Counted from the stretch's first letter, positions 2,411 to 64,000 are shown. The stretch: 64,000 nucleotides of DNA from an uncultured Candidatus Saccharibacteria bacterium (GCA_964392315.1 CAYMOT010000002.1:41234-105233); one strand, 5' to 3'. Numbers and translations are program-made. Notes: a model not told the origin generated them from the sequence alone.

Positions 2411-2556
2411 TTAGGTGACCCCTTATATCTTTCGATACAGGGGAAACCATGTTTGTGGAGAGAGACAACTAAGGCAATTATAGACGATGGTTTCGCTATT
2501 TGTCAATGATCTGTCACCACGTTACAATATTTGTAGAAAGGCTGAATTCCTCACCT

Positions 2557-6842: not shown

Positions 6843-7457
6843 AGAGCAGGGAAGAGGGGAGAAGGACCCTATAAAACTCGGATAGTGTATAGCGGTGTAT
6901 ATTGAAAAGTAAGCATAAGTTATAAAACTATAGGTTATTAATAATTATAGGGTAATTGTCGTCATGTGGATAACTCAACTGCTAATAGGGGGTTAGTGGA
7001 GACGTTCTGAGAGGGGGTCCTTCCCTCGGTCCGAGAGGGGCTTTTTAGGCCGTTTTATACCAATAAAATGGAGCACTACACGAAATATTACAAAAAATAA
7101 AAACCTATTATTCCCGACTTGTGGGTGCCTGGCAAAAATTCATTGAAAAGCGGGAAATCGACATATAACGTCGCTAATCATACAATTCACGACGTTGTGA
7201 ACATTGCTTTTCTTCTACTCCCCCTCGCACGTGTCAACGAATAAATATGTATATATCCAAATAAACTAATAAGCTTATTAGTTTTTATTCCTCATTTGTG
7301 TATTGGTTTATTATAAATTTGAAATTTGTCATTTTTCCCCTCTCCCCCTCCCCTACCTCAAATAATAAACAAATCCGCCAGCTGGCGGAACAAATAAACT
7401 AATAAGCAAATTTATAAGAACATTTGCTTATTTGTAGTATTTGCTTATTATCTATAT

Positions 7458-8453
7458 ATGGCTCAAGGTCTGTCAGAGGCGTTCATTGACTTCATCGAAT
7501 ATTGTGAACTTGAGAGAGGTTTATCCCATCGTACCGCGGAAAAGTACCACTATCGTTTAATGCGGTTTTTGGATTGGCTTATGCAGGTGAATGGGATACA
7601 AACCCCGTCAATAAAGGATATTACGGAAGAAACAATTAAGGAATTCCGGCTGTATTTACATAGATTCGAAAGCGAACAAACCAAAAAGCAGTTAGCAGCA
7701 TCTACACAGCAACATTATCTGGTAGCACTTCGGGCATTTCTTAAATATCTCAAACGCAAGAAAGGCTTTGACCGTTTGTCTGCTGAGGATATTTTGCTGC
7801 CCAAGGCGCAGGGCAAGACGGTCACGTTTCTCAATGTTGAGCACCTTCAAAGCTTGTTTGCACAACCTGATACGCATGAATTGGCAGGAATGCGAGATCG
7901 CGCGATGCTTGAATTATTATTCAGCACCGGGTTGCGTGTCCAAGAATTGATTAATTTAAATAAAGAAGATATTCCTGAAAAAAGCTCCCAATTCACGGTT
8001 TTAGGCAAAGGTAACCGTTACCGTGTGGTATTTTTGAGTGACGTTGCACGCGATTGGGTGCAATTATACCTTTCACGCCGTATAGATGCATGGCTGCCTC
8101 TTTTTGTTAATACTCATGGTCTAAACCCGACGCGTTCTAAGGGGTCTAAAACCGACGAAAATAAATCAGACGTCCTAGATGACCCGGATGGTGAGAGATT
8201 TCGACTTACGGTTCGTTCTGTACAACGCATTATAAAAAAATATGCAAAAATGGCAGGGTTGAGTCAGGAAGTGACGCCGCATGTAATGCGTCATAGTTTT
8301 GCTACCGATTTGTTAACGCGTGGTGCGGATCTTCGATCTGTGCAGGAGCTTCTGGGGCATAAAAATGTCGCGACCACCCAAATCTACACGCATGTTACCA
8401 ATACACGGCTGCAGGAGGTACACAAAAAGTTTCATAGTACAATAGAGGAATAA
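7458..8453 (+). CDS. xerC: tyrosine site-specific recombinase, XerC/XerD family
   Basis: N-terminal SAM-like domain plus a catalytic domain with RVQEL, HVMRHSFATDLL and GHKNVATTQIYTHV (catalytic Tyr). Contains an atypical ~45-aa insertion (NTHGLNPTRSKGSKTDENKSDVLDDPDGERFRL). Confidence 0.8.
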   Translation: MAQGLSEAFIDFIEYCELERGLSHRTAEKYHYRLMRFLDWLMQVNGIQTPSIKDITEETIKEFRLYLHRFESEQTKKQLAASTQQHYLVALRAFLKYLKRKKGFDRLSAEDILLPKAQGKTVTFLNVEHLQSLFAQPDTHELAGMRDRAMLELLFSTGLRVQELINLNKEDIPEKSSQFTVLGKGNRYRVVFLSDVARDWVQLYLSRRIDAWLPLFVNTHGLNPTRSKGSKTDENKSDVLDDPDGERFRLTVRSVQRIIKKYAKMAGLSQEVTPHVMRHSFATDLLTRGADLRSVQELLGHKNVATTQIYTHVTNTRLQEVHKKFHSTIEE

Positions 8454-16070: not shown

Positions 16071-16232
16071 ACAGAAAAAATAAGCAAATAACCAAATAAA
16101 ACAGAAGTCATTTGCATATCTGCATATTGGATTATTTGCTTATTTTACAAACAAAATGACAACATTGCCATTGTACATTCGAAGACCATTGTAACACTTG
16201 GGTATGATCCGGGCAAAGAGAGCAGTGTTCCG

Positions 16233-16886: not shown

Positions 16887-17090
16887 GATAGGAAATAAAC
16901 AAATACAACAGATGCACATTAGTATTATTTGCGTATTGGTTGTTTACGTTACATTGACTCTCCTACGCCGAAAGTATAGCATGATTAAATAGACGAATAT
17001 GCAAATACTACCAATAAACAAATAAGCAAAATAAGTAGTACTTTGCATATTTATCATTTGCTTATTGGCTTATTTGTATATTAATTCCCA

Positions 17091-19885: not shown

Positions 19886-19974
19886 TTAATAAACAAATAT
19901 GCATATAAACAAATATGCAAATAGGATGACATCTGCTTATTTGTAGAATTTGACTATTTGTTTATTTTCCCTTC

Positions 19975-32987: not shown

Positions 32988-33046
32988 AGGTAGGAATAAT
33001 ATACAAATAAGAAAATATGCAAATAGAATTCTGAATTAAATAGTTA

Positions 33047-38995: not shown

Positions 38996-39127
38996 GCAGT
39001 TATTGTAACATGGGAGAAATAAACCAATATACCAATACGCAAATAAGCAAATATGCAAATATGCAAATGAAAAACGATTTGCTTATTTTCACATTTACTT
39101 GTTTTATTGGTAAAATTACACAATAGT

Positions 39128-48860: not shown

Positions 48861-48988
48861 ACCAAATATGCAAATAAGCAAATAAATATTGTGTGATATG
48901 CTGTCTTTTGTAATTCAACAGTTATAACTTCAGAGATCGCATTTGCATTGATTGAAAACCGATCCCCTACCCTGTACAATTTCTGTAC

Positions 48989-50380
48989 ATGCTAAGTCCT
49001 CATATATTTCGTTCGTATGATATTCGTGGAGTAGTTGGAGAAGATTTCCCTCCGGGTAGCGTTTCCGATATTGGCCGCGCGTACGGGACGTTTTTGATCC
49101 GCAAGGGTACGTATGATGCGCTGGTTGGCCATGATACTCGAGAATCATCCCCAGAATTTGCAGAGTCTTTTATAAAAGGTCTTCTTTCAACGGGCGTGAG
49201 TGTTCATTATATTGGCCATTGCCTTACGCAGGGCTTGTATTATGCGCGGCATCATTATGACATTGATGGTGGAGCGATGATTACCGCATCACACAACCCC
49301 TCTCAGTATAACGGATTCAAGCTCTGCCATGGTCTCAAGGCATTATCGGAAGAAGAACTCAAGTCATTGCATACGCTTGTGGAAAACGGAGATTTTGAGC
49401 GTGGAGAAGGAAAATTCCATTTAACAAAAACAGCAATGGATGAATATATGCGGGCGGTGAAGCACCGTATAACGCTTAAGCGTCCTCTGAAAGTAGTAGT
49501 AGATTTAGGAAATGGCACCGGAGGACTTTTCGTACCGCGTTTACTACGTATGCTTGGATGCGAGGTGCATACATTGTTTGCAGACGTTGATCCCACCTTC
49601 CCTAATCACATTCCAGACCCGGTCAAGTTAGATAACCATACTGCTATTATTGATGAAGTCAAAAGGCTTAACGCAGATATTGGCATCATGATTGATGGCG
49701 ATGGCGATCGGGTCGGAACAGTCGATGACAAAGGCAATGTATGGCTCGGGGATATGGTGTTAATTGCGCTGATGCGGAAAATGCTGCCCGATAATCCCGG
49801 TCGCAAGGTAATCGTTGAAGTAAAAAATACCGAAGCAGTCATAGAAGAATGTGAACGGCTTGGTGGTGTTCCGGTATTCTGGAAAACAGGCCATGCGCTC
49901 ATTGACCCCAAAGTAGCAGAAGAAGATGCGATCTTGGCAGCTGAAATGAGCTGCCATTACTGGGTAACGCCCAATTGGTATGTATTTGACGATGGACTTT
50001 TTGCCATTTGCACTTTACTTCAATTATTATCAGAACAAGATAAGTCGTATTCACAAATAATGGCAGACATTCCACAATATCCGGTAACACCTGAATATCG
50101 GGTGTCATGCCCAGAAGATCGGAAAACCGCTATAGTAGAAAGCGCAAAAAAGTATTTTATGGAAAAATGCACCAAAGTTATCGATGTAGACGGTATACGG
50201 GGTTACTACGACGATGGATGGTTTCTTATTCGACAATCTAACACTCAACCGGTGATTGCTGTTCGCGTTGAGGCAAAAACTCCCGATGGTCTTGAGCGCG
50301 TGAAGTCATTTGTTCAGGAGCACCTCAACAGCTACCCTGAAATAAATCTAGACTGGGAGCGGCAGTACGACGCGGAGTAA
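48989..50380 (+). CDS. phosphohexomutase (phosphoglucomutase/phosphomannomutase or GlmM-like)
   Basis: Active-site loop ITASHNPSQYNGFK, the metal-binding MIDGDGDRVGTVD, and a sugar-binding GEMSCHY. 463 aa. Confidence 0.85.
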   Translation: MLSPHIFRSYDIRGVVGEDFPPGSVSDIGRAYGTFLIRKGTYDALVGHDTRESSPEFAESFIKGLLSTGVSVHYIGHCLTQGLYYARHHYDIDGGAMITASHNPSQYNGFKLCHGLKALSEEELKSLHTLVENGDFERGEGKFHLTKTAMDEYMRAVKHRITLKRPLKVVVDLGNGTGGLFVPRLLRMLGCEVHTLFADVDPTFPNHIPDPVKLDNHTAIIDEVKRLNADIGIMIDGDGDRVGTVDDKGNVWLGDMVLIALMRKMLPDNPGRKVIVEVKNTEAVIEECERLGGVPVFWKTGHALIDPKVAEEDAILAAEMSCHYWVTPNWYVFDDGLFAICTLLQLLSEQDKSYSQIMADIPQYPVTPEYRVSCPEDRKTAIVESAKKYFMEKCTKVIDVDGIRGYYDDGWFLIRQSNTQPVIAVRVEAKTPDGLERVKSFVQEHLNSYPEINLDWERQYDAE

Positions 50381-50469
50381 ATTATAAGCGAATAATCTAA
50401 TAAACAAATATTCGAATAGACTAATGTCATCAATTTGTTAATTCGTGTATTAAATTATTTGTATAGTTG

Positions 50470-55490: not shown

Positions 55491-55568
55491 TGGTGGGTGA
55501 TACAAGATTCGAACTTGTGACCTCCACCGTGTCGAGGTGGCGCTCTAACCAACTGAGCTAATCACCCA
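55491..55568 (-). tRNA. tRNA-Val (anticodon GAC) with encoded CCA
   Basis: The reverse complement folds as a cloverleaf: acceptor GGGTGAT/ATCACCC, D-arm GCTC-AGTTGGTTA-GAGC, anticodon arm CCACC-TCGACAC-GGTGG (GAC in the centre; position 33 is C, which is unusual), T-arm ACAAG-TTCGAAT-CTTGT, then ACCA. Confidence 0.8.
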
Positions 55569-55619
55569 GGAAGAATAAGCAAATACTACAAATAAACTTG
55601 CCTACCTACGCAGGCAGGT

Positions 55620-56732
55620 CTATTTGCTTATTTCATTCTTGGGCATGTTCCATTCTACCAATTGCCTGATTACCTTGTCACGGCGCATCAGGTATCGCAA
55701 GTGTTCTTTTCGGTCGGGGTCATTGAACAGCTGTTTTGCATTTGGTTCCTTGCTTGCATCAATTTCAGCTTTTACTTCTTCATCAGAAACGCTTATATTT
55801 TCAAGTTCTGCAATCTTTGCCGTTATAAACTCTATAGTATATTCGTGTTCCAGGTCATCTTTCCATTGCTTTTTTAATTCCTCCACTGTAGTTTGCTGTT
55901 TCTTTGAGTAACCTTCTAGGTCTAATCCCATTTTTTCTAGCTCTTCAGTCTTATGTTTCTCCTGGTGCTCTAAATCGTGTTGAATGAGCTTTTTTGGAAG
56001 TGATAAATTAGTCTTTTCTTTCAGTGCATTTAAAACTTCTTGGGTAAATTTATTACCGGATATATAAAAACGCTCGAGGGTTAAATTAGCTTGTAATCGT
56101 TGTGTAAGATCATCGAGATTTTCAGCCCCTAGTGTAATTGCCCATTCGTCATCTGGCTTGTCTTTAGTGTTTGCTAGAGGGGCTTGTTTTTTATGACTGG
56201 TGGCTTTGTCGTTTGCTTCTTCCAAAGTCGTTGCAGTCTCGATTTTCGTGCCTTCTTCCTTAGTGCGCTCTTTCCACGTAGCAAAAAGCTCATCTAATGC
56301 TTTTTGTGTATCTTCGGGCGTGATTGTGGGCTCTTCGTATGTAACGCCGAGGCTTTTATAATCAGGAAGTTCAGGCTCTGGTCGCACTGTTACCACAAAG
56401 ACGAATTCAGGATTTCCCTCCCCTTTCATGAGTGCTTCTTCATTATTAATTTTTATCTGAGGCTGTATAAGAGGAAATATTTTCTCGTCTTGCAATATCT
56501 TCCGGTATGCACCCTCCACTAATTGCTCCAAAGTCTCCTGAAATAATCGGTACTCCCCTACTCTTTTTCTGATTTCATTCACCGGTGCCTTGCCTGGCCG
56601 AAATCCGGGTATATTGATATCACGACCAAGGAGTTCTAACGCAAGGGTTTGAGCAATTTTCGTATCACTTGCGTCGGTCGTTACCGTGAATTCTATCTCG
56701 CAATCAGGTAAGTCTTTTCTGGTGATGTTCAT
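55620..56732 (-). CDS. tig: trigger factor (ribosome-binding and chaperone domains; short)
   Basis: N-terminal ribosome-binding domain with the GFRPGKAP signature loop. 370 aa, which is short, so the PPIase domain may be reduced. Confidence 0.85.
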   Translation of the reverse strand: MNITRKDLPDCEIEFTVTTDASDTKIAQTLALELLGRDINIPGFRPGKAPVNEIRKRVGEYRLFQETLEQLVEGAYRKILQDEKIFPLIQPQIKINNEEALMKGEGNPEFVFVVTVRPEPELPDYKSLGVTYEEPTITPEDTQKALDELFATWKERTKEEGTKIETATTLEEANDKATSHKKQAPLANTKDKPDDEWAITLGAENLDDLTQRLQANLTLERFYISGNKFTQEVLNALKEKTNLSLPKKLIQHDLEHQEKHKTEELEKMGLDLEGYSKKQQTTVEELKKQWKDDLEHEYTIEFITAKIAELENISVSDEEVKAEIDASKEPNAKQLFNDPDRKEHLRYLMRRDKVIRQLVEWNMPKNEISK

Positions 56733-57304
56733 ACAGGCCTCATTATAAGTGCATTTTGCAAATCCGCCAACTAGCGGAGCATATAAAGAAATATCTAAAA
56801 ATGCTATAGGTGTTGTGCAATTGTGATTAGTAAAAAATGACGTTATAATCCGTCAAAATAATGCTGCACATTAAAAGTGGAGGCAGTTTGGGACTTGAAG
56901 GGTGGGTATAAGAAGTCTCTTTTCGGACTTTTTGTATCCCCCCTTCGTTTTTTAACCCCAAATTCCTCCGAAAACTGTTCCCAACAGATCGACAAATCCT
57001 ACAAACTCACGCTGTCCCCCGAGTTTAATGGATACAAGTCCTTACCGTTTCCTCTTTGGTCAAATTCCAATCATTCCCCTTTTAAATACATTGTGCCATC
57101 ACACAATGTATTTCCTCGCTTTATTCCCCTCCCAGGCTTGAGGAAGCCTCCCCATGGTAAGGCATATATTCAAGCTCCTCCTCCCCGGAGGAGTGAAGCA
57201 CACAGCTGATGCGGCTGTGTGTACCTAGAATGTGCTCAAAAGACGAAAGCCCTAAGAGAGCATGTTCTGTTTATTGGCTAGGGCACTATGTAAGAAGGAG
57301 ATTG

Positions 57305-57814
57305 ATGATTCCCCTAGAGCAAAGGGTACGTAATCCCGTAAAGATCGATGTCCCCGGTCTTTGTGTACGCACGCTTGTGGATGAGGTGTTTTGCAGGCGT
57401 GGTGTTTTCGTAGTCCCCTTTCGACGAGGGGATTTCATTCCAGAGAGAGGGGATCTCGTTGCAGAGATTTTGATTATCAATGACCAGAGTGTTCCGATTC
57501 CTTTGGTCTGCCTTCGGGTAAAAAGAGAAGGCAATAGGTACTGGTTCGGGCGGATCTTTCGATTGGTCGATTTTTCCGAAAAGGTTCGTCGAGAAGATGA
57601 GCAAGTTCGGTTGGTCGATGAACAAGGTCGAGAGATTCCTAACACTCCAGAAGATCGGCTCGCTCACATTCTGCGAATGCGTGTCCTTCCTCGGAATGAC
57701 GCACAAAAGAAGCAGTGGGCGTATTGGGGTGATGAATATTGGGTAGCTGCTATCTTCAGCGAACTTCGTCGCCTTAAGGTGCAGGCTGTTCGTGCGGTAG
57801 CCTCGAGGAGGTAG
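57305..57814 (+). CDS. hypothetical protein (Arg-rich), GC-rich region
   Basis: RBS AAGGAG 4 nt before the ATG. 169 aa. No family recognised. Confidence 0.45.
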   Translation: MIPLEQRVRNPVKIDVPGLCVRTLVDEVFCRRGVFVVPFRRGDFIPERGDLVAEILIINDQSVPIPLVCLRVKREGNRYWFGRIFRLVDFSEKVRREDEQVRLVDEQGREIPNTPEDRLAHILRMRVLPRNDAQKKQWAYWGDEYWVAAIFSELRRLKVQAVRAVASRR

Positions 57815-57816
57815 CC

Positions 57817-57912
57817 ATGAGTGCGTTTGGCCGGCTTCTATTGGTCTACTTTGCCTTAATGTGCTTGCTTATGGCGGGGATATTTATGCTCGCCAACATC
57901 CTTGGAGGATGA
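57817..57912 (+). CDS. 31-aa hydrophobic micro-protein (MSAFGRLLLVYFALMCLLMAGIFMLANILGG)
   Basis: GGAGG RBS 5 nt upstream. Its stop overlaps the RBS of the next gene. Not in the ORF track because it is under 60 aa. Confidence 0.35.
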   Translation: MSAFGRLLLVYFALMCLLMAGIFMLANILGG

Positions 57913-57913
57913 C

Positions 57914-58453
57914 ATGACGCATCAAGTGGTGTACGCCCCGTATGGGGCGCGGATTGAGATGGAGTTGGATAGCATACCGTTTCGCGTAGAAATGGGCATG
58001 CACGTGCAGGCGGACACGAAGAGTCTGCTAGGACGGCAGGCGGTTCGCTCGTTGCAGGAATGCAAGTTGCAGCCGCAGCTCTTCGTGACCCTCGATTCTC
58101 GCGGGCTTCCCATCGAGCCAGTGCTGCTTTCGCAGCGGCACGAGGTCTACGGTGTCGAGCTTGCGCTCGCGTGGACCACGCAGGCGTCCAGCTTCGTCGG
58201 CTGGGGGCCGCTGATGGCTCCCTGGATCTACGATCCCAGCTTCGACTGGGAACTGCGCGTCAAAGCTTTGGCGCAAGCGATTGCGGTCAAGCTGTTTCCG
58301 ACGGCGAAGTGCGAGTCAGTGTTCACATTTGCGGGCGGCATCATGATCGCCTATGACACAGACTTGCTGCGTTTGACCAATCGTTCGGCGCAGTTTGAAA
58401 TCCAGATGCCTATGCCCGCAGTGGGTGCTTCGGCCGTCGCTGTGACGGCATAG
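57914..58453 (+). CDS. hypothetical protein
   Basis: GGAGGA RBS 4 nt upstream of the ATG (MTHQVVYAPYG...). 179 aa, Ala/Leu-rich, high-GC third positions. Followed by a terminator. Confidence 0.5.
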   Translation: MTHQVVYAPYGARIEMELDSIPFRVEMGMHVQADTKSLLGRQAVRSLQECKLQPQLFVTLDSRGLPIEPVLLSQRHEVYGVELALAWTTQASSFVGWGPLMAPWIYDPSFDWELRVKALAQAIAVKLFPTAKCESVFTFAGGIMIAYDTDLLRLTNRSAQFEIQMPMPAVGASAVAVTA

Positions 58454-58472
58454 AGAGATAGCTGAATGGCAA

Positions 58473-58508
58473 GGCCGACCCGTCTGACGGGCCGGCCTTT
58501 TGTTTTTT
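58473..58508 (+). terminator. rho-independent terminator
   Basis: GGCCGACCCG-TCTGA-CGGGCCGGCC hairpin followed by TTTTGTTTTTT. Confidence 0.75.
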
Positions 58509-58587
58509 ACTCACATTTTCTCAACAAATTCAGATAACCAGCCTGTAAAAGTATCAATGAGCTCTCATTACAAAAAGGCTTATAGTA

Positions 58588-58617
58588 TTGACATGAGGGT
58601 GTAATTTTTGCTATAAT
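58588..58617 (+). promoter_or_regulatory. near-consensus sigma70 promoter (TTGACA-N18-TATAAT)
   Basis: TTGACA at 58588-58593 and TATAAT at 58612-58617, in an AT-rich spacer upstream of the lipoprotein gene. Confidence 0.55.
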
Positions 58618-58687
58618 GCCGCCAGTTTTCGCACCTCCAGTCCCGAGCGGGTCTGGAAGAATTCACAAGCAGAAGATGGAGGTTTCG

Positions 58688-59362
58688 ATGAAAAAGTTCG
58701 GTTTGTTGTTTGTTTTGTTGCTGGCTCTGGCCCTGGCCGCGTGCGGCGGCAACCCGGCGGCCGATACGACCGGCGGCGCGGCCGCGCCGACGGTGGCCCC
58801 CACAGTCACCCCTGCGGAGACGCCGGAGGGGCAGGATCCCCTACTGGCGGCCCCGGTCGGCAACTCTGGGTACGACAACTGCCTCGATCCGTGGGATCTG
58901 GGGCGGGTGCGCGAGGCCTACAAGTCGAAGATAAGTCCGACAGGTTACGCAGGGACGGTCGTCCTGCTCACCTGGACTCGGGAGGCTGGGCCCCAGAACT
59001 TCGATGAGTGCTACACGAACCGGCATGGCCAATTCGTGTTTACCAAGCACGATGTACCCATCACTGAAGAGCTTTACGAGCGTCTGACCGGCGGCCGGAA
59101 CGACCTGACGGTCCTGGCGCCCGTCCACGCTACGCAGGTACCCTCGGGGTGGGAAGCTTCGATGTGGGTGCATGACTATGTTAATGGTTTCATGACCTAC
59201 GAAGAAGTCAACTCCTACACCCTCTGGGCCTTCCAGAACGACGCAGAAGGCTACCAGATGGTCGCCGGCATGGTGGCGGCCGGCCTCATCGGTGCCTTGC
59301 TCGTTCCCGCGTTGCTCGGGGGCCCGATGGTCCCTGACTGCGGCATGAACAGCTGCGGCTAG
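58688..59362 (+). CDS. lipoprotein (lipobox LAAC) with Ala/Pro/Thr linker and a hydrophobic Cys-rich C-terminus
   Basis: MKKFGLLFVLLLALALAAC|GG signal peptide with a GGAGG RBS. The C-terminal MVAGMVAAGLIGALLVPALLGG TM-like segment ends in DCGMNSCG. The ORF track starts at 58616. Confidence 0.6.
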   Translation: MKKFGLLFVLLLALALAACGGNPAADTTGGAAAPTVAPTVTPAETPEGQDPLLAAPVGNSGYDNCLDPWDLGRVREAYKSKISPTGYAGTVVLLTWTREAGPQNFDECYTNRHGQFVFTKHDVPITEELYERLTGGRNDLTVLAPVHATQVPSGWEASMWVHDYVNGFMTYEEVNSYTLWAFQNDAEGYQMVAGMVAAGLIGALLVPALLGGPMVPDCGMNSCG

Positions 59363-59389
59363 AACGGCCGCAAGGAGAGTAACAATATA

Positions 59390-59428
59390 AAAAGACCCCG
59401 CCCTACTGTAGGACGGGGTCTTTCACGT
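59390..59428. terminator. bidirectional terminator between convergent genes
   Basis: AAAGACCCCGCCCTAC-TG-TAGGACGGGGTCTTT, a near-perfect 15-bp palindrome flanked by A/T runs. Confidence 0.7.
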
Positions 59429-59449
59429 TTATGGGTGTAAATAAAAGCG

Positions 59450-59980
59450 TCAAATACTCACAGATAGTTTCTGATATCCAAGTCTTTCCAAATCTGAGGC
59501 AATGTCATTATAAGACTTCCCTGCTAATCTCCCACCTGCGATAAAGTCTTCTTGGGTGACGTCAGCCAAGCAAAAATCCGGTACCACAAAGTTCTCCTTT
59601 TCTTCTTCAGATGAGAACTCAAAATCTACAAGCACTAAGCCTTCCAAAGCATCCGCGAATACATCCACCTCAGCAGCATGCCCGTTGTAATCAAATGAAT
59701 ATCGAAATTTTCGCAATTTCCTAGCAGGAATATTTCTAAATGCAGCGAATTCGTGCTCTTCCAAATCAATAGTATGCTCTTCATGTTGCGATGCGTCTCC
59801 TCTTTCAATAGGAATCTTTTTGACAAAGGTGTATTTGTCGCCACTTTTTCGAATACGAATTCGAGGATGTGTGGCATCTATGGGTAGATACATATCAATA
59901 ATTTCTTTTTTTGTTGCGTGATGAATGTCGGCGGGGATATATTTTGCCAGAAATGTTAATTCAAGTTCTAATTCAGTCAT
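59450..59980 (-). CDS. CYTH-domain protein (CyaB/thiamine-triphosphatase-like triphosphate tunnel metalloenzyme)
   Basis: RIRIRKSGDKYTFVKK, RKFRYSFDYNGHAAEVDVFADALEGLVLVDFEFSSEEE and FVVPDF match CYTH core strands. AT-rich codon usage like the first part of the window. Confidence 0.6.
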   Translation of the reverse strand: MTELELELTFLAKYIPADIHHATKKEIIDMYLPIDATHPRIRIRKSGDKYTFVKKIPIERGDASQHEEHTIDLEEHEFAAFRNIPARKLRKFRYSFDYNGHAAEVDVFADALEGLVLVDFEFSSEEEKENFVVPDFCLADVTQEDFIAGGRLAGKSYNDIASDLERLGYQKLSVSI

Positions 59981-59994
59981 ACTGCCAAGTGTAG

Positions 59995-60024
59995 CACAAA
60001 AAAAGGGACACCCGGCGGGTGTCC
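59995..60024 (-). terminator. rho-independent terminator (minus strand)
   Basis: GGGACACCCGCCGGGTGTCCC hairpin followed by TTTTTTT on the minus strand, between gene 60061-60414 and the CYTH start. Confidence 0.7.
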
Positions 60025-60060
60025 CAGTGGAGCTACTGCTCCTTTGCGTTGTCTCTCAAA

Positions 60061-60414
60061 CTACTGCCGCCGGCGCGCTCCGTGACGGATCTCGTCTAAC
60101 GCATCAGCGCCATCAACGTCATCGGTGGCGATTTCGGTCTTTCCCGTGTGTTGCTCGAGGCCTTCAATGAAGAAGGCGAAGAGCACCAAGTTCGGTTCTG
60201 CGGTTACGATCTGCAGGCTGTAGCCTCCTTCGAAGAAGAAAGGATACACGCCGATATGGTCGAGGAATCGCTCAAGACTCTCAGGGGTGACGATCTTGTC
60301 GTCAGGCCTGAACACGTAGATGAGCCTGTCGCCGACCAGAATTCCCCAGTTATCCGTACCGAAGAAGTTCGTGAGGAGCCTCTGGACGACTTTCAGAATC
60401 TTCGTTTTGCTCAT
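60061..60414 (-). CDS. hypothetical protein
   Basis: 117-aa ORF with high-GC codon usage. No family recognised. Confidence 0.45.
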   Translation of the reverse strand: MSKTKILKVVQRLLTNFFGTDNWGILVGDRLIYVFRPDDKIVTPESLERFLDHIGVYPFFFEGGYSLQIVTAEPNLVLFAFFIEGLEQHTGKTEIATDDVDGADALDEIRHGARRRQ

Positions 60415-60424
60415 AGAACCCTCC

Positions 60425-60787
60425 TTACGGACGATTTATCCAGAATGTCGTGAGGGTGGCGAATAGTGTAAACACCAACCAAATGGTCTGCCACCTCATC
60501 GACTTTCGGTACATTGCGATGATCATCGCCACGTAGGGCACGATGATCAACAGCGCTATTGGCATACCGATCGAATCCACGCTCACGGCGATTATGCCCA
60601 TACTCAGGGCAGTGGCGACCGATACACGAGAATCAAAGTATGCCATACCGATTGCAGAGGACAGCACGAGAAATGCAGCAATGTATGCACCTTGTTCGCT
60701 TCCGGAGAATACATACCCCATCAGAAAAACGAAAAGTGCAAACTTGCAGATGTCTCGATACCCATTACTTTTGTATGTGTTGTCCAT
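60425..60787 (-). CDS. hypothetical membrane protein (3-4 TM)
   Basis: 120 aa with hydrophobic helices. Confidence 0.5.
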   Translation of the reverse strand: MDNTYKSNGYRDICKFALFVFLMGYVFSGSEQGAYIAAFLVLSSAIGMAYFDSRVSVATALSMGIIAVSVDSIGMPIALLIIVPYVAMIIAMYRKSMRWQTIWLVFTLFATLTTFWINRP

Positions 60788-60796
60788 GGGGCACCT

Positions 60797-61105
60797 CTAA
60801 GCAGCTTCCCTCTCTTCTTCGTCCGGGAAGACGAGGAAGGCAAAGATGGTGATTGTCAGCTCACCGATTGCCAGGACGACTGTCTTGCCTGTGGCGAAGG
60901 GAAGGCGTTCGAAGCCCCCATACTCCATAACCGACTCGATCTGCGCTTCGGTCATGGTCCCTTGGACAATGACCATACAGACGTTGCCATCGATGAAGAA
61001 GTGGAAGTCCACTTCATTTTCGATTGCAAAGTCAAAGGCGTAAGGAAGGGTGTCTCTGACGTACTCTTCCTTTTCGTATCTCGTTCCTACGTATCTCCTT
61101 GTCAT
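60797..61105 (-). CDS. hypothetical protein
   Basis: AAGGAG RBS 5 nt before the ATG (MTRRYVGTRYEKEEY...). 102 aa. Preceded on its strand by a hairpin plus T-tract at 61127-61160. Confidence 0.5.
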   Translation of the reverse strand: MTRRYVGTRYEKEEYVRDTLPYAFDFAIENEVDFHFFIDGNVCMVIVQGTMTEAQIESVMEYGGFERLPFATGKTVVLAIGELTITIFAFLVFPDEEEREAA

Positions 61106-61180
61106 TGTTCTCCTTCTTGCATGAAAAAAGGGTGCCGCCACCTGCGCGGCGCGCACCCTCTTGCTAGTTCAGTTGCGACT

Positions 61181-61354
61181 TCACTCGAGATCGTCGATGG
61201 TGAAGAGGTAGAAATCCTCTTCTCTCCACCAATCGCTGAAGTCTTCCACAGCCTGGCCATCAAATGGCAGGCCAAGGAAATCAGCGACTGCATCGATCAG
61301 GTCACGGATGTTCGGAATCCGTGCCTTCGTACCAGTAGTGCATAAACGCAACAT
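61181..61354 (-). CDS. hypothetical small acidic protein (57 aa)
   Basis: ATG preceded by GAGAGAGGAAATAA. Protein MLRLCTTGTKARIPNIRDLIDAVADFLGLPFDGQAVEDFSDWWREEDFYLFTIDDLE. Under the 60-aa ORF-track cut-off. Confidence 0.35.
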   Translation of the reverse strand: MLRLCTTGTKARIPNIRDLIDAVADFLGLPFDGQAVEDFSDWWREEDFYLFTIDDLE

Positions 61355-61450
61355 TTATTTCCTCTCTCAGTTGGTGAGCCCGCAAAGGCTCAGTTGTTTG
61401 AAATTGGTGCCGCCCATAGGCGGCGGCACCATACAGCTTACTTCAGACTG

Positions 61451-61687
61451 CTACTCGGGCATGCCATCGAAAGGCAAGTCCCAATCGCCACCCATCCAGA
61501 TATTCGGATAATCTGATGTGGGGCACTGGGCAGCCTTCACGGCGGTGGTACCAGCATTCTCGGTCCCGACGATCTCGATGGTAACGTTGTCAGGGGAAAC
61601 GCCCAGCAGCTGCGCAACTTGCTGCAACAGCCTGCCAGTATCGCCCCAGTACACTATCCTATCTGCCCGAATTACGATATCTGTCAC
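61451..61687 (-). CDS. hypothetical 78-aa protein (GTG start)
   Basis: GAGGAGG RBS 5 nt before the GTG. VTDIVIRADRIVYWGDTGRLLQQVAQLLGVSPDNVTIEIVG... The longer ATG-initiated ORF to 61810 has no RBS. Confidence 0.4.
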   Translation of the reverse strand: MTDIVIRADRIVYWGDTGRLLQQVAQLLGVSPDNVTIEIVGTENAGTTAVKAAQCPTSDYPNIWMGGDWDLPFDGMPE

Positions 61688-61755
61688 AGTGTCCTCCTCA
61701 AACTGGTGTGTCCTCCGTGCCCGGAGGACACGGAGGACATGCGCATGTTCGACGC

Positions 61756-62067
61756 CTACAGTGCCGCCGGGTTGGCGAGCATCGGGTAGTTGGCCCGATG
61801 CAGACCGCACCGCTGCGGGTGGAGCCCATGACGGCGAGTCGTCCTACTGCAGCCGGGGATGGTGCACAGCCGCCGCGGGGCGACGCTGTGGTCCCGGGTG
61901 GAGGCCACTTCATAGTGGCCGCTGCAGTTATCGCCACCCTGGTAATCGGGCGTCTGATGGGCAGCATTGATCCTGACGAGGTCATTCGGCGTCATGTTGA
62001 TGAGACGCCGCTTGCGACCGCAGGTCTTGCATTCGACCCTCGTAATAACGCTTTGCCTATTTTTCAA
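61756..62067 (-). CDS. hypothetical Cys-rich (zinc-ribbon-like) basic protein
   Basis: VECKTCGRKRRL...DNCSGH...LCTIPGC Cys pairs. AAGGAG RBS 5 nt before the TTG at 62067 (the ORF extends to an ATG at 62115). Third-position GC favours this strand over the antisense plus-strand ORF. Confidence 0.4.
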   Translation of the reverse strand: MKNRQSVITRVECKTCGRKRRLINMTPNDLVRINAAHQTPDYQGGDNCSGHYEVASTRDHSVAPRRLCTIPGCSRTTRRHGLHPQRCGLHRANYPMLANPAAL

Positions 62068-62120
62068 CTTTGCTCCTTTTTGGGTGTGACCTCGCCGGCT
62101 ATCCGGCGAGGCCACCTAGG

Positions 62121-62537
62121 TTAGTTCAGACTAATTGGAAAGGTCTGGCCGACGAAAGCCGGCATTTCCTGCCGGCCGACTGGAACGACGATCTGAACTC
62201 TCCCTTCGTAGTCGTCGATCCAAATGCCAGCAACTTTGAACCCATGCTTCTGCAGCTCATCCATAGTGTGAGTCAGGAGATCTTGAGGATCTCCATTCAC
62301 TACCTCACAGCTACGATGCGCCGCCAGAACGACCAGGTCAGCGTCGCGGTGCTCCACGAGAATTTGGTCAACCGCATTCTCAGAAGCACCTCCGCCGTCC
62401 ATCTGGAGGTATTCGATATAGGCAATTCCTTCGGTATCGTCAGTGGACATCACTTGCGTAATCGCCACAGGAAGGATATCGCTGAATATCGCAGCATCTG
62501 GGTTGCACGCCACGAACAAGACACGTGCCGTTCTCAT
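62121..62537 (-). CDS. hypothetical alpha/beta protein (138 aa)
   Basis: MRTARVLFVACNPDAAIFSD...DLVVLAAHRSCEVVNGD: alternating buried beta-strand-like segments suggest a Rossmann/flavodoxin-like fold. Its ATG overlaps the upstream stop (ATGA). Confidence 0.45.
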   Translation of the reverse strand: MRTARVLFVACNPDAAIFSDILPVAITQVMSTDDTEGIAYIEYLQMDGGGASENAVDQILVEHRDADLVVLAAHRSCEVVNGDPQDLLTHTMDELQKHGFKVAGIWIDDYEGRVQIVVPVGRQEMPAFVGQTFPISLN

Positions 62538-62683
62538 CGCCCGCGTTCCTCCCAGAGCCTGTCCTGACGCATCTTCCACAGAAGGATGATGGTCAGGATG
62601 ACCATGGATTGTGGCACGAAGATGGCGGTGATGGCCAGCTTGGCCAGGTCGAGTTTGGCCTGGAGGGTGAGTTTAGGCTTCAT
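62534..62683 (-). CDS. 49-aa single-TM micro-protein
   Basis: GGGAGGTGGTGAG RBS. MKPKLTLQAKLDLAKLAITAIFVPQSMVILTIILLWKMRQDRLWEERGR. One-nt gap to the upstream stop and ATGA overlap with the downstream start. Confidence 0.45.
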   Translation of the reverse strand: MKPKLTLQAKLDLAKLAITAIFVPQSMVILTIILLWKMRQDRLWEERGR

Positions 62684-62684
62684 C

Positions 62685-63119
62685 TCACCACCTCCCATAC
62701 TCGACATACACACGTTCGGCCTCGGGGTGCGGGTCCCCATCGAACCAGGCCTGCACTTCCTTCAGGACGTCCCCGGCGCATATCAATTCGCCATTGCCTT
62801 TGATGAAGTGAATGCCGTCGCCGTAGTTCGTGAGCCATCCCAAGCACGGGACTTCCACGAGCCACGAGCCGTCGATATTCGGTGGGACCATGACGTAGGT
62901 GAGACGGCGGGCCGGGGTTTTGCCCCAGAACAGGGGGAAGTACCCTCCCGCTATCACGCTGAAGATCGCGATGCCCGACAAGGCCGCGGCTGTACTGGAC
63001 ATGCCAACATACTGCGATGCCAGCAGTAGGCCCAGGAGCACGAATACCGACCCGAACAACATGGCGACCCAGATTCGGAACAATACCGGGTCGTACTCCT
63101 TCTTCGAATTACTCAACAT
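62685..63119 (-). CDS. membrane protein with two N-terminal TM helices and a C-terminal bacterial PH-like (bPH_2/DUF304-type) domain
   Basis: AAGGAGGT RBS 6 nt before the ATG (MLSNSKKEYDPVLFRIW...). Two TM helices plus a ~75-aa soluble domain matches the YdbS/YdbT architecture. The assignment is by architecture only. Confidence 0.45.
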   Translation of the reverse strand: MLSNSKKEYDPVLFRIWVAMLFGSVFVLLGLLLASQYVGMSSTAAALSGIAIFSVIAGGYFPLFWGKTPARRLTYVMVPPNIDGSWLVEVPCLGWLTNYGDGIHFIKGNGELICAGDVLKEVQAWFDGDPHPEAERVYVEYGRW

Positions 63120-63135
63120 GATCGACCTCCTTACC

Positions 63136-63399
63136 TTAGCCGTGACTAAACTCTGAGAGCACGACGCGCAGCCTATCAAGCGCGCGCACAACGCTCCAAC
63201 CCTTTTCCGTAAGGTGAATCTCGCAGCAGGTGTACTTTCCGGAGAGTTCCACCCAGCCGCGTTCTTCCATCTTCTTGATGATCTCGTCGACCTTCGCGAC
63301 CCCGAGCCGCTGAATTGGTTTGTACCATTCGCACGACATTACGGCGTCGAGGATTGAGATGTAGATCATCAGTTGCTGAGCATGCTTCTGAAATTCCAC
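63136..63399 (-). CDS. small winged-helix DNA-binding protein (putative transcriptional regulator)
   Basis: AAGGAGG 6 nt before the GTG. YKPIQRLGVAKVDEIIKKMEERGWVELSGK is a wHTH recognition helix-wing pattern. 87 aa. Confidence 0.5.
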   Translation of the reverse strand: MEFQKHAQQLMIYISILDAVMSCEWYKPIQRLGVAKVDEIIKKMEERGWVELSGKYTCCEIHLTEKGWSVVRALDRLRVVLSEFSHG

Positions 63400-63449
63400 G
63401 GCAAGCCTCCTTGGGGAGGGGCGTCGTCGGACGACACCCCTCAGTAGAT

Positions 63450-63761
63450 TTAGCCCGGACCCAAGGTCACGGGCAGGACCCAATCGGATAGGTCCTGGTT
63501 GCGGCGGCGTTGCCGTTTCTTGTTGGCGTAGCGGACCTTCTTCGCAGCCGGCCGCTCCTTGCCATCCTGAGACCGGTGCGACCCGATCTCAAAGGTGACC
63601 TTTGCCCCGAACTTCAACTTCTTCTCGTCTCCGTCCCGCGGGATGACCGCGCTGACGTGGACGAAAATCCGCTGATCGCGGCCAGCGTCATCGGTGTATT
63701 TGATCTCACCGTAACGCCGGCTGCTGTGAACCCGAATCATGTAGCCGGACAGACTGTTCAC
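63450..63761 (-). CDS. cold-shock-domain (CSD/OB-fold) nucleic-acid-binding protein with basic C-terminal tail
   Basis: YGEIKY (FGFI-like RNP1), IFVHVSAV (RNP2), GAKVTFEIG and RPAAKKV match the CspA-family pattern. C-terminal KKRQRRRNQ tail. GTG start with a GGGAGG RBS and GTGA overlap with the upstream gene. Confidence 0.55.
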   Translation of the reverse strand: MNSLSGYMIRVHSSRRYGEIKYTDDAGRDQRIFVHVSAVIPRDGDEKKLKFGAKVTFEIGSHRSQDGKERPAAKKVRYANKKRQRRRNQDLSDWVLPVTLGPG

Positions 63762-63982
63762 GATGTAAGTGCCTCCCTGAAGCCCTTGATGAGGGCATCG
63801 GTGTTCCCGCTGAACGGGCCGAGGATCGAAGCGAGCTTCGTGTCGTCGACGAATGTAAGCTCAATTGGCCGCACTTGATGCTCAAGGAGCACGTCGATCA
63901 GATAGGCGCCATTTCTTGCCATCATACCGTCGAACCCGCAAGCGGCCCAAAACCGTCGAGTCGCCTCGCGTACAGTTATCAC
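63758..63982 (-). CDS. hypothetical protein (may extend beyond the window end)
   Basis: GTG start with GAAGG 4 nt upstream. 74 aa. No upstream in-frame stop occurs before the window edge. Confidence 0.35.
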   Translation of the reverse strand: MITVREATRRFWAACGFDGMMARNGAYLIDVLLEHQVRPIELTFVDDTKLASILGPFSGNTDALIKGFREALTS

Positions 63983-64000
63983 TTCGCCTTCGACCCCAGT

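What the first reader, a model, noticed from the sequence alone, without database searches (positions are those of the whole stretch)
56733..60060. Abrupt compositional switch from AT-rich to GC-rich DNA near 56.9 kb, with an AT-rich CYTH gene embedded in the GC-rich block
Upstream of ~56.8 kb the genes are AT-rich, and most inspected start codons are preceded by no Shine-Dalgarno sequence. Downstream the genes are GC-rich, Ala/Pro-rich, use AAGGAGG SDs and have GC hairpin terminators. The CYTH gene (59450-59980) reverts to AT-rich codon usage and is bracketed by two strong terminators. This mosaic suggests horizontally acquired DNA, such as a genomic island, prophage remnant or integrative element, inserted about 1.2 kb from tRNA-Val. 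The alternative is a chimeric assembly join.
Basis: seen in the sequence. Interest (0 to 1): 0.65.

Follow-up and report, generated by a model that had tools for sequence, protein, structure and literature searches.

The report
Foreign 39-kb island in Saccharibacteria genome
The jump from AT-rich to GC-rich DNA is real and marks one edge of a 39-kb block of foreign-looking, mostly unknown genes that sits stably in the small genome of a Saccharibacteria (TM7) bacterium; it is not an assembly error, and it shows no sign of being a prophage or a tRNA-targeted element.

Summary
G+C rises from 42.9% (sd 2.6, 113 windows of 500 nt) to about 52.5% at 56.9-57.2 kb, and the tetranucleotide signature flips at the same place. 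Third-position G+C is 0.32-0.45 in host genes and 0.47-0.80 in block genes. No strong Shine-Dalgarno site precedes any of 46 host genes, while 47 of 53 block genes have one. By walking along an identical public contig I found the far edge. The block is about 39 kb, from 56.9 kb to about 96.2 kb in window-equivalent coordinates. It lies between tig and an AT-rich aminotransferase gene. More than eight independent assemblies span the near junction, and three that I examined span the far one, so a chimeric join is excluded. I found no integrase, transposase, phage or conjugation genes, no tRNA-Val repeat and no flanking direct repeats. Nearly all genes are orphans. The exceptions are two cold-shock proteins, UPF0182, a CitMHS transporter, a GHKL ATPase and a very divergent Rho. 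The block is present in every strain sampled, and diverged versions occur in related lineages, so the acquisition is old. The AT-rich CYTH gene is a true CYTH of a family common in CPR bacteria and DPANN archaea, with host-type expression signals. Verdict: an old, anchored genomic island. The donor and the function are unknown.

The parts
55491..55567 (-). tRNA-Val(GAC). A neighbour of the block, not part of it.
   Evidence: ARAGORN and Rfam, 69.4 bits. No fragment of 12 nt or more is repeated elsewhere in 97.7 kb.
55620..56732 (-). Trigger factor (tig), the last host gene before the block. It lacks a PPIase domain.
   Evidence: Pfam Trigger_N and Trigger_C only. GC3 0.38 and no Shine-Dalgarno site.
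56733..57304 (+). Near boundary. It holds divergent promoter-like sites (56742-56770 on the minus strand for tig; 56821-56849 on the plus strand reading into the block), a hairpin at 56904-56941, and then a leader of about 250 nt that is C-rich and G-poor on the sense strand.
   Evidence: Promoter scan. GC skew -0.34. 36 C against 10 G in the most skewed 100 nt. No Rfam match.
57305..57814 (+). First block gene: a 169-aa orphan with intermediate composition.
   Evidence: AAGGAG Shine-Dalgarno site, GC3 0.47. No Pfam, PHROG or PADLOC match. A 67%-identical homologue occurs in a related lineage. The AlphaFold model is unusable, pLDDT 36.
57817..57912 (+). 31-aa hydrophobic peptide gene.
   Evidence: GGAGG Shine-Dalgarno site. 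Called in several independent assemblies.
57914..58453 (+). 179-aa orphan.
   Evidence: GC3 0.75, GGAGG site. It has one homologue (64% identity) among 1.84 billion representative proteins.
58470..58508 (+). GC-rich hairpin followed by a T run: an intrinsic terminator after the first operon.
   Evidence: Read directly from the sequence.
58588..58617 (+). Consensus sigma-70 promoter, TTGACA-18-TATAAT with an upstream TG, inside an AT-rich patch.
   Evidence: 12 of 12 matches.
58688..59362 (+). Lipoprotein of 224 aa (lipobox LAAC; Ala/Pro/Thr-rich linker).
   Evidence: Translation. GC3 0.80, GGAGG site. No family match.
59390..59424 (.). Two-way terminator hairpin between the lipoprotein gene and the CYTH gene.
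   Evidence: 16-bp stem.
59450..59980 (-). CYTH-like gene with host-type composition and signals, embedded in the block.
   Evidence: PDB 2fbl/3typ at E=1e-9. phrog_6660 at 8.9e-9. 367 homologues, the named ones mostly from CPR bacteria and DPANN archaea. GC3 0.32, no Shine-Dalgarno site. Present at the same place in six further assemblies.
60005..60025 (-). Terminator hairpin ending the long leftward operon, just upstream of the CYTH gene.
   Evidence: 9-bp stem followed by T7.
60061..61354 (-). Four small orphan genes: 117 aa (60061-60414), 120 aa with several membrane spans (60425-60787), 102 aa (60797-61105) and 57 aa (61181-61354). Hairpins lie between them.
   Evidence: GC3 0.59-0.72, Shine-Dalgarno sites. 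100% identical in other strains. No family match.
61451..64000 (-). The part of the operon that varies most between strains: 78 aa (61451-61687), 103-aa Cys-rich zinc-finger-like protein (61756-62067), 138 aa (62121-62537), 68 aa (62534-62740), 144 aa (62685-63119), 87-aa winged-helix regulator (63136-63399), 96-aa cold-shock-domain protein (63450-63740), and the start region of a 168-aa gene (63758 onwards, which ends at 64264 outside the window).
   Evidence: CSD at 1.5e-6. phrog_11046 transcriptional regulator at 4e-4. Zf_WRKY19 at 0.009. For the zinc-finger gene, the minus-strand frame is the better conserved (66-68% against 50%). The segment is 38-87% identical at protein level between strains whose flanks are at least 98.8% identical at DNA level.

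Best explanation
Window 56.9-64.0 kb is the first 7 kb of a genomic island of about 39 kb and 53 genes. It lies between tig and an aminotransferase gene in the chromosome of an uncultured Saccharibacteria (TM7) species.

Shown:
- The island differs from the core genome in base composition, codon usage and translation-initiation signals.
- Both of its junctions are real.
- It carries no recognisable mobility, phage or conjugation genes.
- It is present in every sampled strain of the species, and diverged versions occur in related lineages.
- It takes part in the same homologous recombination between strains as the flanking core genes.

Inferred:
- The DNA came long ago from a donor, or from a mobile gene pool, that was richer in G+C and relied on Shine-Dalgarno sites. 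That source has no sequenced relatives.
- The element has since lost whatever machinery brought it in and is now inherited vertically.
- It has picked up host-type pieces: the CYTH gene, and two AT-rich palindromic modules of about 150 nt that carry the host's intergenic motif.
- Its operons are expressed as mRNAs with long leaders: a promoter region, then a hairpin, then a C-rich and G-poor leader, then genes with Shine-Dalgarno sites. Host genes look leaderless.
- The island's own divergent Rho-like ATPase and its two cold-shock-domain proteins are candidates for controlling read-through of those C-rich leaders, which resemble Rho loading sites. This last step is speculation from the anatomy.

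The cargo consists of membrane proteins and lipoproteins, a UPF0182 protein, a CitMHS transporter and a GHKL ATPase. Its cellular role is unknown; cell-surface or host-contact functions are a guess.
For: Composition and signals.

Far edge. G+C falls to 0.37-0.45 at L027 1-1500, where arginase and aminotransferase genes have GC3 of 0.35 and no Shine-Dalgarno site. The composite sequence matches the window at 100% over the 18,381-nt overlap.

Junctions in independent assemblies:
- Near junction: ERR2586217 (113-kb contig), SRR7051044, SRR13871837, SRR36123269, SRR31594169, SRR25569717, SRR12898367, SRR3464626x, and GTDB genome GCA_964493575.1 contig 30.
- Far junction: ERR2586217, GCA_964493575.1 contig 33, and SRR25569717.

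Orphan content. Only CSD (twice), UPF0182, CitMHS and HATPase_c were found among 50 proteins. The 226-aa protein has 2 hits in 5.8 billion proteins. The 179-aa protein has 1 hit in 1.84 billion. The nearest UPF0182 is 25-31% identical.

Age:
- A strain about 11% diverged keeps the far junction.
- Lineage L011 (tig 89% identical at DNA level) has GC-richer small genes with Shine-Dalgarno sites and the same CYTH gene next to tig.
- Lineage L043 has the first operon at 65-67% protein identity, with Shine-Dalgarno sites and a C-rich leader.
- Clustered mismatch tracts occur in both host and island DNA.

Host-type inserts. The motif TATTTGCTTATT occurs 32 times in host DNA. In the island it occurs only in the two palindromic modules, each upstream of a leftward operon.

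C-rich leaders. Rho-like protein.

Genomic islands are already documented in Patescibacteria (PMC12455944).
Against: - No donor lineage could be named.
- No insertion scar was found. There are no flanking direct repeats, and the two ends share only weak inverted similarity (z=3.4; 3 of 300 shuffles reach it).
- No empty site was found in any relative, so the acquisition itself is inferred from composition and signals only.
- If the block predates the split of lineages whose proteins are now 65-77% identical, its sharp compositional contrast needs explaining. GC3 is in fact lower in the other lineages (0.42-0.59).
- The proposed Rho and cold-shock control of the leaders is untested.
- I did not see the rest of the genome, so other such blocks may exist.
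Confidence: 0.7

Rival explanations
1. The block is a very divergent or degraded prophage or integrative element. It may derive from a phage or mobile element shared between the epibiont and its GC-richer bacterial host, which relies on Shine-Dalgarno sites. Its structural and integration genes would be unrecognisable or lost.
For: - The size, about 39 kb, is typical of a prophage.
- It has many small orphan genes, overlapping co-directional gene runs, winged-helix and cold-shock-domain regulators, helix-hairpin-helix proteins and a GHKL ATPase.
- Island sequences are often more conserved between strains than the flanking tig gene, and contigs break at the 5' end of tig in many samples.
[quoted passage not shown] An Actinobacteria prophage expresses genes and replicates to a limited extent in TM7x (PMC13578794).
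Against: - Pfam, PHROGs and PADLOC found no terminase, portal, capsid, tail, lysis, integrase or replication protein.
- tblastn against 50,697 phage records returned no match for the 20 proteins of the window-proximal part and only generic cold-shock hits for 15 proteins of the far part. One 11-protein stretch and the last five proteins were never sent.
- Neither of the two proteins I queried against IMG/VR has a relative there.
- No protein is long enough to be a tape measure apart from the membrane protein UPF0182.
- The cargo includes cellular-type genes (UPF0182, CitMHS, Rho).
- No attachment-site repeats were found.
- The block sits at the same place in all strains.
Confidence: 0.15
2. 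The block is native. It is a lineage-specific, fast-evolving compartment of Saccharibacteria genes whose higher G+C comes from GC-biased gene conversion in a recombination-prone region. These genes use Shine-Dalgarno sites because they are expressed from long-leader operons. No horizontal transfer is involved.
For: - The block is present in all strains, and cognate operons occur at the same locus in related lineages.
- Recombination tracts are dense.
- It contains host-type motifs and a host-type CYTH gene.
- GC3 differs between lineages, 0.42-0.59 elsewhere against 0.47-0.80 here.
- No mobility genes and no donor were found.
Against: - The switch is abrupt at both edges and coincides exactly with the change in Shine-Dalgarno use (0 of 46 against 47 of 53) and in tetranucleotide signature.
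- Internal genes of host operons also lack Shine-Dalgarno sites, so operon position alone does not explain the difference.
- Recombination tracts also occur in the flanking host genes, which stay AT-rich.
- UPF0182 and Rho are only distantly related to any known homologue.
Confidence: 0.12
3. The window is a chimeric assembly that joins a Saccharibacteria contig to DNA of a GC-richer organism.
For: The change in composition and signals at 56.9 kb is abrupt. In the GTDB genome the contig ends 108 nt into tig.
Against: - The same junction, at 97.7-100% identity, occurs in assemblies of at least eight separate samples, including three contigs of 50-200 kb that run tens of kb on both sides.
- AT-rich host genes resume on the far side of the block on the same contigs.
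- Contig breaks at tig coincide with an 18%-divergent strain tract inside tig. That tract explains the breaks.
Confidence: 0.02

Closest known systems
Old, anchored genomic islands that have lost their mobility genes (for example the Salmonella pathogenicity islands), and the genomic islands reported in Patescibacteria (PMC12455944)
   Same: A large contiguous block with atypical composition and codon usage, accessory cargo rich in membrane and surface proteins, a fixed position in the species, and no working mobility module.
   Different: There is no tRNA target, no direct repeats and no remnant of an integrase or insertion sequence. Nearly all genes are orphans. The island also differs from the core genome in how translation starts (Shine-Dalgarno against none), and it encodes its own Rho-like factor.
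Prophages of Saccharibacteria and other CPR bacteria (PMC10746230), and the Actinobacteria prophage Xhp1 that enters TM7x (PMC13578794)
   Same: Size of about 40 kb, many small orphan genes, residence in a Saccharibacteria chromosome, and composition and signals resembling those of a GC-richer partner organism.
   Different: No hallmark phage gene was detectable, there is no similarity to deposited phage genomes or IMG/VR contigs, and no attachment sites were found.
CYTH / triphosphate tunnel metalloenzymes, for example NeuTTM of Nitrosomonas europaea (PDB 2fbl, 3typ)
   Same: The 176-aa protein aligns over residues 5-145 at E about 1e-9. The two glutamates of the N-terminal motif and other charged tunnel residues are invariant across the family.
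   Different: The N-terminal motif reads ELELT here and ELEKT in most relatives, instead of ExExK. The family has a conserved C-terminal extension (DFCLADVTQEDFIAGG). This protein does not reach any Pfam threshold.
Transcription termination factor Rho
   Same: The island's 585-aa protein matches solved Rho structures over the OB-fold RNA-binding domain and the ATPase domain. It has a Walker A motif (GPPGSDKS) and the Rho signature SGKTLSGGLDP.
   Different: The match is very weak (E of 2e-6 at best) and Pfam finds nothing. The protein has a C-terminal extension of about 290 aa and is encoded inside an island. I did not check whether the genome also has a standard rho gene.

Membership tests
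Genomic island (horizontally acquired block) | Base composition and codon usage differ from the core genome | tested here: met
   42.9% against 52.5% G+C; GC3 0.32-0.45 against 0.47-0.80; the tetranucleotide signature flips at 57 kb.
Genomic island (horizontally acquired block) | Large contiguous block (about 10-200 kb) flanked by core genes | tested here: met
   About 39 kb between tig and the aminotransferase and arginase genes.
Genomic island (horizontally acquired block) | Inserted at the 3' end of a tRNA or tmRNA gene | tested here: not met
   tRNA-Val is 1.3 kb away with its 5' end facing the block and tig in between. There is no tRNA inside or at the far edge and no repeated tRNA fragment.
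Genomic island (horizontally acquired block) | Flanking direct repeats | tested here: not met
   The two boundary regions share no direct 9-mer, and blastn of the region against itself finds nothing. The 12-mer AGTTGTTAACGT is at the far edge and at two internal sites, but not at the near edge.
Genomic island (horizontally acquired block) | Mobility genes (integrase, transposase, insertion sequence) | tested here: not met
   None among 50 proteins in Pfam. The only tyrosine recombinase in the window (7458-8453) is 50 kb away and AT-rich.
Genomic island (horizontally acquired block) | Patchy presence among close relatives | tested here: not met
   Every contig that reaches the junctions carries the block. 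Cognate operons occur in related lineages. No empty site was found.
Prophage | Hallmark genes (terminase, portal, major capsid, tail, lysis, integrase) | tested here: not met
   Pfam, PHROGs, tblastn against phage records (covering 35 of the 53 proteins) and IMG/VR (two proteins) were all negative, apart from generic cold-shock hits. Fold-level searches were not possible: the only model had pLDDT 36.
Integrative conjugative or mobilisable element | Relaxase, coupling protein or FtsK-like translocase, type IV secretion genes, integrase | tested here: not met
   None in the block. A TrwB-like ATPase lies at window 2500-5109, in AT-rich host DNA 52 kb away.
CYTH / triphosphate tunnel metalloenzyme (gene 59450-59980) | Sequence relationship to solved CYTH proteins | tested here: met
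   2fbl and 3typ at E=1.1e-9 and 1.3e-9 over residues 5-145. Several family members carry PF01928.
CYTH / triphosphate tunnel metalloenzyme (gene 59450-59980) | N-terminal ExExK motif | tested here: inconclusive
   E5 and E7 are invariant, but the lysine position holds Thr (ELELT). Most relatives read ELEKT, with the lysine shifted by one position. Catalytic competence cannot be judged from sequence.
Assembly chimera | The junction is absent from independent assemblies | tested here: not met
   The near junction was recovered in at least eight samples and one GTDB genome; the far junction was recovered in three assemblies I examined. Read-level support could not be tested.

The most novel reading that the evidence does not exclude
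The block is not inert acquired cargo. It would be a self-contained foreign expression compartment kept inside a reduced epibiont genome, with its own Rho-like terminator, cold-shock-type RNA chaperones, C-rich leaders resembling Rho loading sites, and Shine-Dalgarno-dependent translation, in a cell whose core genes are leaderless. It would descend from, and perhaps still exchange with, a mobile element or phage pool shared with the GC-richer bacterial host on which the epibiont lives. In that case its foreign signals would persist because the genes must also work in that partner.
Probability: 0.1. Interest if true: 0.8.

Novelty: new member of a known kind. Interest (0 to 1): 0.45.

Why it matters
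Saccharibacteria are ultra-small epibionts with genomes of about 1 Mb, in which every kilobase is expected to be under pressure. One block of 39 kb would be roughly 4-5% of such a genome. This block is conserved across strains, made almost entirely of orphan genes, and uses translation signals that the core genome does not use. That raises three questions:
- Where does such DNA come from? The bacterial host of the epibiont and its phages are obvious suspects.
- How does a cell that appears to translate leaderless mRNAs express genes that depend on Shine-Dalgarno sites?
- What do the encoded membrane proteins and lipoproteins do at the contact between epibiont and host?

The result also has practical uses. 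The compositional break is not a mis-assembly, so binning tools that discard such contigs would lose real genome content; in the GTDB genome the block is split over two separate contigs. The sharp contrast between host and island signals also gives a simple marker for finding similar blocks in other CPR genomes.

Tried and rejected
- Integration at tRNA-Val: rejected. No repeated tRNA fragment exists, and the orientation and spacing are wrong.
- Long terminal repeats, direct or inverted: not found by blastn of the region against itself. There is only a weak inverted resemblance between the two boundary leaders (z=3.4; alignment A1). I attribute this to their shared C-rich leader architecture.
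- The two 169-aa end genes as paralogues: rejected.
- A non-coding RNA in the boundary region: no Rfam match beyond the tRNA. The long AT-rich hairpin gave only spurious microRNA hits.
- Prophage: PHROGs, tblastn against phage records (35 of the 53 proteins sent) and IMG/VR (two proteins) were all negative.
- Defence island: PADLOC was negative for the 10 proteins sent.
- JGI metagenomes: no relative of the 564-aa protein, and the organism seems to be absent from that collection.
- Structure prediction of the 169-aa protein: unusable, pLDDT 36.
- Run accessions searched in the paper library to learn the habitat: nothing found.
- Empty site: none of the contigs carrying variants of tig or of the aminotransferase lacks the block.
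- AGTTGTTAACGT as a promoter -35 element: no convincing -10 box at the right spacing, so it is left unexplained.

Full report
**Observation**

The compositional switch is real and sharp.
- 1-kb windows read 0.386-0.481 G+C over window 1-57000 and 0.478-0.592 from 57001 to 64000.
- For 500-nt windows the host part averages 0.429 (sd 0.026, maximum 0.502, n=113). The GC-rich part averages 0.526 (sd 0.046).
- Every 3-kb chunk up to 57 kb correlates at r=0.80-0.90 with the host tetranucleotide centroid. Every chunk after 57 kb gives -0.23 to 0.45.
- GC3 is 0.32-0.45 in host genes and 0.47-0.80 in genes beyond 57.3 kb.
None of 46 host genes has a GGAGG/AGGAG site at the right distance. 47 of 53 genes of the GC-rich block have a Shine-Dalgarno site, 45 of them strong.
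- Terminator-like hairpins are enriched: 15 against 7.0 +/- 2.9 in shuffles. Two strong ones bracket the CYTH gene, at 59390-59424 and 60005-60025.
- The only tRNA in the window is tRNA-Val(GAC) at 55491-55567 on the minus strand.

**Who the host is**

The AT-rich side carries core genes: gyrA, gyrB, pheS, pheT, thrS, infC, rplT, tyrS, recG, a clpB-like gene, PBP1A, murA, a type IV pilus cluster, and tig without a PPIase domain. A search of one genome per species found a single related locus. It is contig 30 of GCA_964493575.1, titled 'uncultured Candidatus Saccharibacteria bacterium'.

**The join is not a chimera**

Exact-protein look-ups returned a 113-kb Logan contig (ERR2586217) that is 100% identical to window 28722-64000 and continues 78 kb further. 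Two more contigs of 50-200 kb have the same gene order. These proteins are also on record on a 270,893-bp NCBI contig.

Contigs from other samples span the tig/block junction at 97.7-100% identity: SRR7051044, SRR13871837, SRR36123269, SRR31594169, SRR25569717, SRR12898367 and SRR3464626x. The GTDB genome spans it at 98.8%.

Many short contigs stop within about 10-110 nt of the tig start. This is explained by an 18%-divergent tract inside tig (56442-56671) that differs between strains found together, while the block side is identical.

The CYTH gene lies between the same GC-rich neighbours in six further assemblies.

**True extent**

I walked along the ERR2586217 contig using proteins as handles. 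This gave a composite of 97,696 nt in window-equivalent coordinates, identical to the window over the 18,381-nt overlap.
- The GC-rich state persists to about 96.2 kb.
- G+C then drops to 0.37-0.45 in an aminotransferase gene (GC3 0.35, no Shine-Dalgarno site) and an arginase-family gene.
- The block is therefore about 39 kb with 53 genes, of which the window holds the first 7 kb.
- The far junction is also present in contig 33 of the GTDB genome (97% identical) and in a strain about 11% diverged.

**What the block contains**

Pfam scans of 50 block proteins found only two cold-shock domains, UPF0182 (1,033 aa), a CitMHS transporter, a GHKL (HATPase_c) ATPase and a marginal zinc-finger hit.
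- The PHROGs and PADLOC scans I ran on subsets of the block proteins added nothing of substance.
- tblastn of 35 of the block proteins against 50,697 phage records gave nothing but generic cold-shock matches; the remaining 16 were not sent.
- Neither of the two proteins queried against IMG/VR has a relative there, and the one queried against JGI metagenomes has none either.
- The genes are true orphans. The 226-aa protein has 2 matches in 5.8 billion proteins. The 179-aa protein has 1 match in 1.84 billion representatives. The nearest UPF0182 is 25-31% identical.
- By eye and then by a PDB search, the 585-aa protein is a very divergent Rho: OB domain plus ATPase, with GPPGSDKS and SGKTLSGGLDP motifs, at E=2e-6.
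- The rest is dominated by small membrane proteins, lipoproteins, winged-helix proteins and helix-hairpin-helix proteins.
- I found no integrase, transposase, terminase, portal, capsid, relaxase or secretion gene.

**Edges**

- No 12-mer of tRNA-Val recurs anywhere.
- The two boundary regions share no direct 9-mer and show only a weak inverted resemblance (z=3.4; 3 of 300 shuffles reach it).
- Both boundaries consist of a promoter-like AT-rich stretch, a hairpin, and then a tract of 200-300 nt that is C-rich and G-poor on the sense strand of the first inward-reading operon.

**Internal anatomy**

- The host's intergenic motif TATTTGCTTATT occurs in palindromic arrays with an 8-nt period. It is found 32 times in 58.5 kb of host DNA.
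- Inside the block it occurs only in two AT-rich palindromic modules of about 150 nt, at 64957-65103 and 75333-75479. The two are 73% identical to each other, and one is 74% identical to host region 50380-50465. Each lies upstream of a leftward operon.
- Nearly every block operon is preceded by a C-rich, G-poor sense-strand tract, with C minus G of +22 to +33 per 100 nt. Only 0.5% of block windows reach 25. Every block window with an absolute skew of 27 or more lies in such a position, in sense orientation; one of these falls inside a doubtful 154-aa ORF just upstream of the CitMHS gene.
- An exact 12-mer, AGTTGTTAACGT, occurs three times in 97.7 kb, always on the same strand: at 65156, 75499 and 96192. 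Each copy lies upstream of a hairpin plus C-rich leader. Its role is unexplained.
- A perfect sigma-70 promoter lies at 58588-58617.

**The CYTH gene**

- Pfam gives no hit. The protein does match the solved CYTH proteins 2fbl and 3typ (NeuTTM) at E about 1e-9.
- It has 367 homologues at 50-58% identity. The named ones are mostly from CPR bacteria (Amesbacteria, Pacebacteria, Moranbacteria, Gracilibacteria) and DPANN archaea.
- Its N-terminal motif is ELELT, where the family has ELEKT and classical CYTH proteins have ExExK.
- In another Saccharibacteria genome (GCA_964633995.1) the homologue sits among ordinary AT-rich genes.
- Here it has host-type GC3 (0.32), no Shine-Dalgarno site, and a TACACT box 7 nt before the ATG. 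It is therefore a host-type gene embedded in the block.
- The same arrangement is conserved in a related lineage. In L011 the CYTH is 77% identical and lies among GC-richer genes with Shine-Dalgarno sites. A classical CYTH paralogue and then tig (89% identical at DNA level) follow on the same contig.

**Age and population behaviour**

- Strain comparisons show blocks of 100% identity alternating with tracts of 70-90% identity, in host and block DNA alike. The block therefore recombines like the chromosome around it.
- The stretch from about 61.47 to 64.26 kb is the most variable: 38-87% protein identity between strains whose flanks are at least 98.8% identical at DNA level.
- A lineage with 65-67% identical proteins (L043) keeps the first operon, its Shine-Dalgarno sites and a C-rich leader, with lower GC3 of 0.42-0.53.
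- The block therefore predates these splits. It is an old, anchored island, not a recent insertion.

**Interpretation**

The best-supported reading is an anciently acquired genomic island with these properties:
- Its donor is unknown and is not among sequenced organisms.
- Its mobility functions are gone.
- It has since taken in host-type pieces.

The anatomy suggests that its operons are expressed as long-leader, Shine-Dalgarno-dependent transcripts, in a cell whose own genes look leaderless. The TATAAT box sits 9 nt before the tig ATG, and host motifs lie 10-30 nt before start codons. C-rich leaders resemble Rho loading sites, and the island has a Rho paralogue and two cold-shock proteins, so I propose conditional read-through control. 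This is inference only.

Published work makes such blocks plausible:
- Genomic islands and prophages make up to 13% of some Patescibacteria genomes (PMC12455944).
- Most CPR groups keep the anti-Shine-Dalgarno motif (PMC9297842).
- An Actinobacteria prophage expresses genes in TM7x (PMC13578794).

A divergent prophage remnant and a native fast-evolving compartment remain possible. A chimera does not.

**Limits**

- There were no reads, so depth and spanning support are untested.
- I did not see the rest of the genome or the 16S rRNA.
- No empty site and no donor were found.
- Fold-level annotation failed for lack of homologues.

Noticed in passing
window 7412-7449, 16090-16144, 16905-17074, 19899-19966, 33017-33036, 39045-39087, 48876-48895, 55585-55632: Host intergenic regions carry palindromic arrays, with an 8-nt period, of the motif TATTTGCTTATT / AATAAGCAAATA. 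There are 32 hits with at most one mismatch in 58.5 kb, usually 10-30 nt before start codons that lack Shine-Dalgarno sites. They are probably promoter or operator elements of leaderless or short-leader mRNAs.
   Followed up: partly
window 55620-56732: The trigger factor has only the N- and C-terminal domains, with 56 residues between them. The PPIase domain is missing.
   Followed up: no
L027:11789-13546 (minus strand); window-equivalent 84151-85908: The island encodes a 585-aa, very divergent Rho-like ATPase with a C-terminal extension of about 290 aa rich in Ala and Glu. Pfam does not detect it; PDB Rho structures match at E=2e-6.
   Followed up: partly
window 56920-57200, and window-equivalent 64871-64990, 66341-66460, 90361-90570, 91621-91760, 95911-96120: C-rich, G-poor tracts (C minus G up to +33 per 100 nt) lie on the sense strand upstream of nearly every island operon. 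They resemble Rho loading sites.
   Followed up: partly
window-equivalent 65156, 75499, 96192 (L001:4814-4825 minus strand; L027:1494-1505): The exact 12-mer AGTTGTTAACGT occurs three times in 97.7 kb, always on the same strand. Each copy lies upstream of a hairpin and C-rich leader. A strain about 11% diverged has one mismatch in the far-edge copy. Its function is unknown.
   Followed up: partly
window-equivalent 64957-65103 and 75333-75479 (L001:4872-5040; L018:14500-14650): Two AT-rich palindromic modules of about 150 nt lie inside the island. They carry the host intergenic motif and are flanked by purine-rich and pyrimidine-rich arms. One resembles host region 50380-50465 (74% identity).
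   Followed up: partly
window 61470-64000 (continuing to 64258): This segment varies strongly between strains: 76-85% DNA identity or unalignable, and 38-87% protein identity. The DNA on both sides is at least 98.8% identical.
   Followed up: partly
window 56442-56671: An 18%-divergent recombination tract inside tig (41 mismatches in 230 nt) is shared by three strains. Assemblies tend to break here.
   Followed up: yes
window 58588-58617: A perfect extended sigma-70 promoter (TTGACA-18-TATAAT with TG) sits in an AT-rich patch before the lipoprotein gene.
   Followed up: no
window 2500-5109 and 7458-8453: A TrwB/VirD4-like coupling ATPase (869 aa) and a Xer-like tyrosine recombinase lie in AT-rich host DNA about 50 kb from the island.
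   Followed up: no
L011:3842-4411 and 6449-6982: In the related lineage, the tig-adjacent block holds a GC-rich adenylate kinase with a Shine-Dalgarno site, and a second, classical CYTH gene (EIEKKY motif, AT-rich) next to tig.
   Followed up: no
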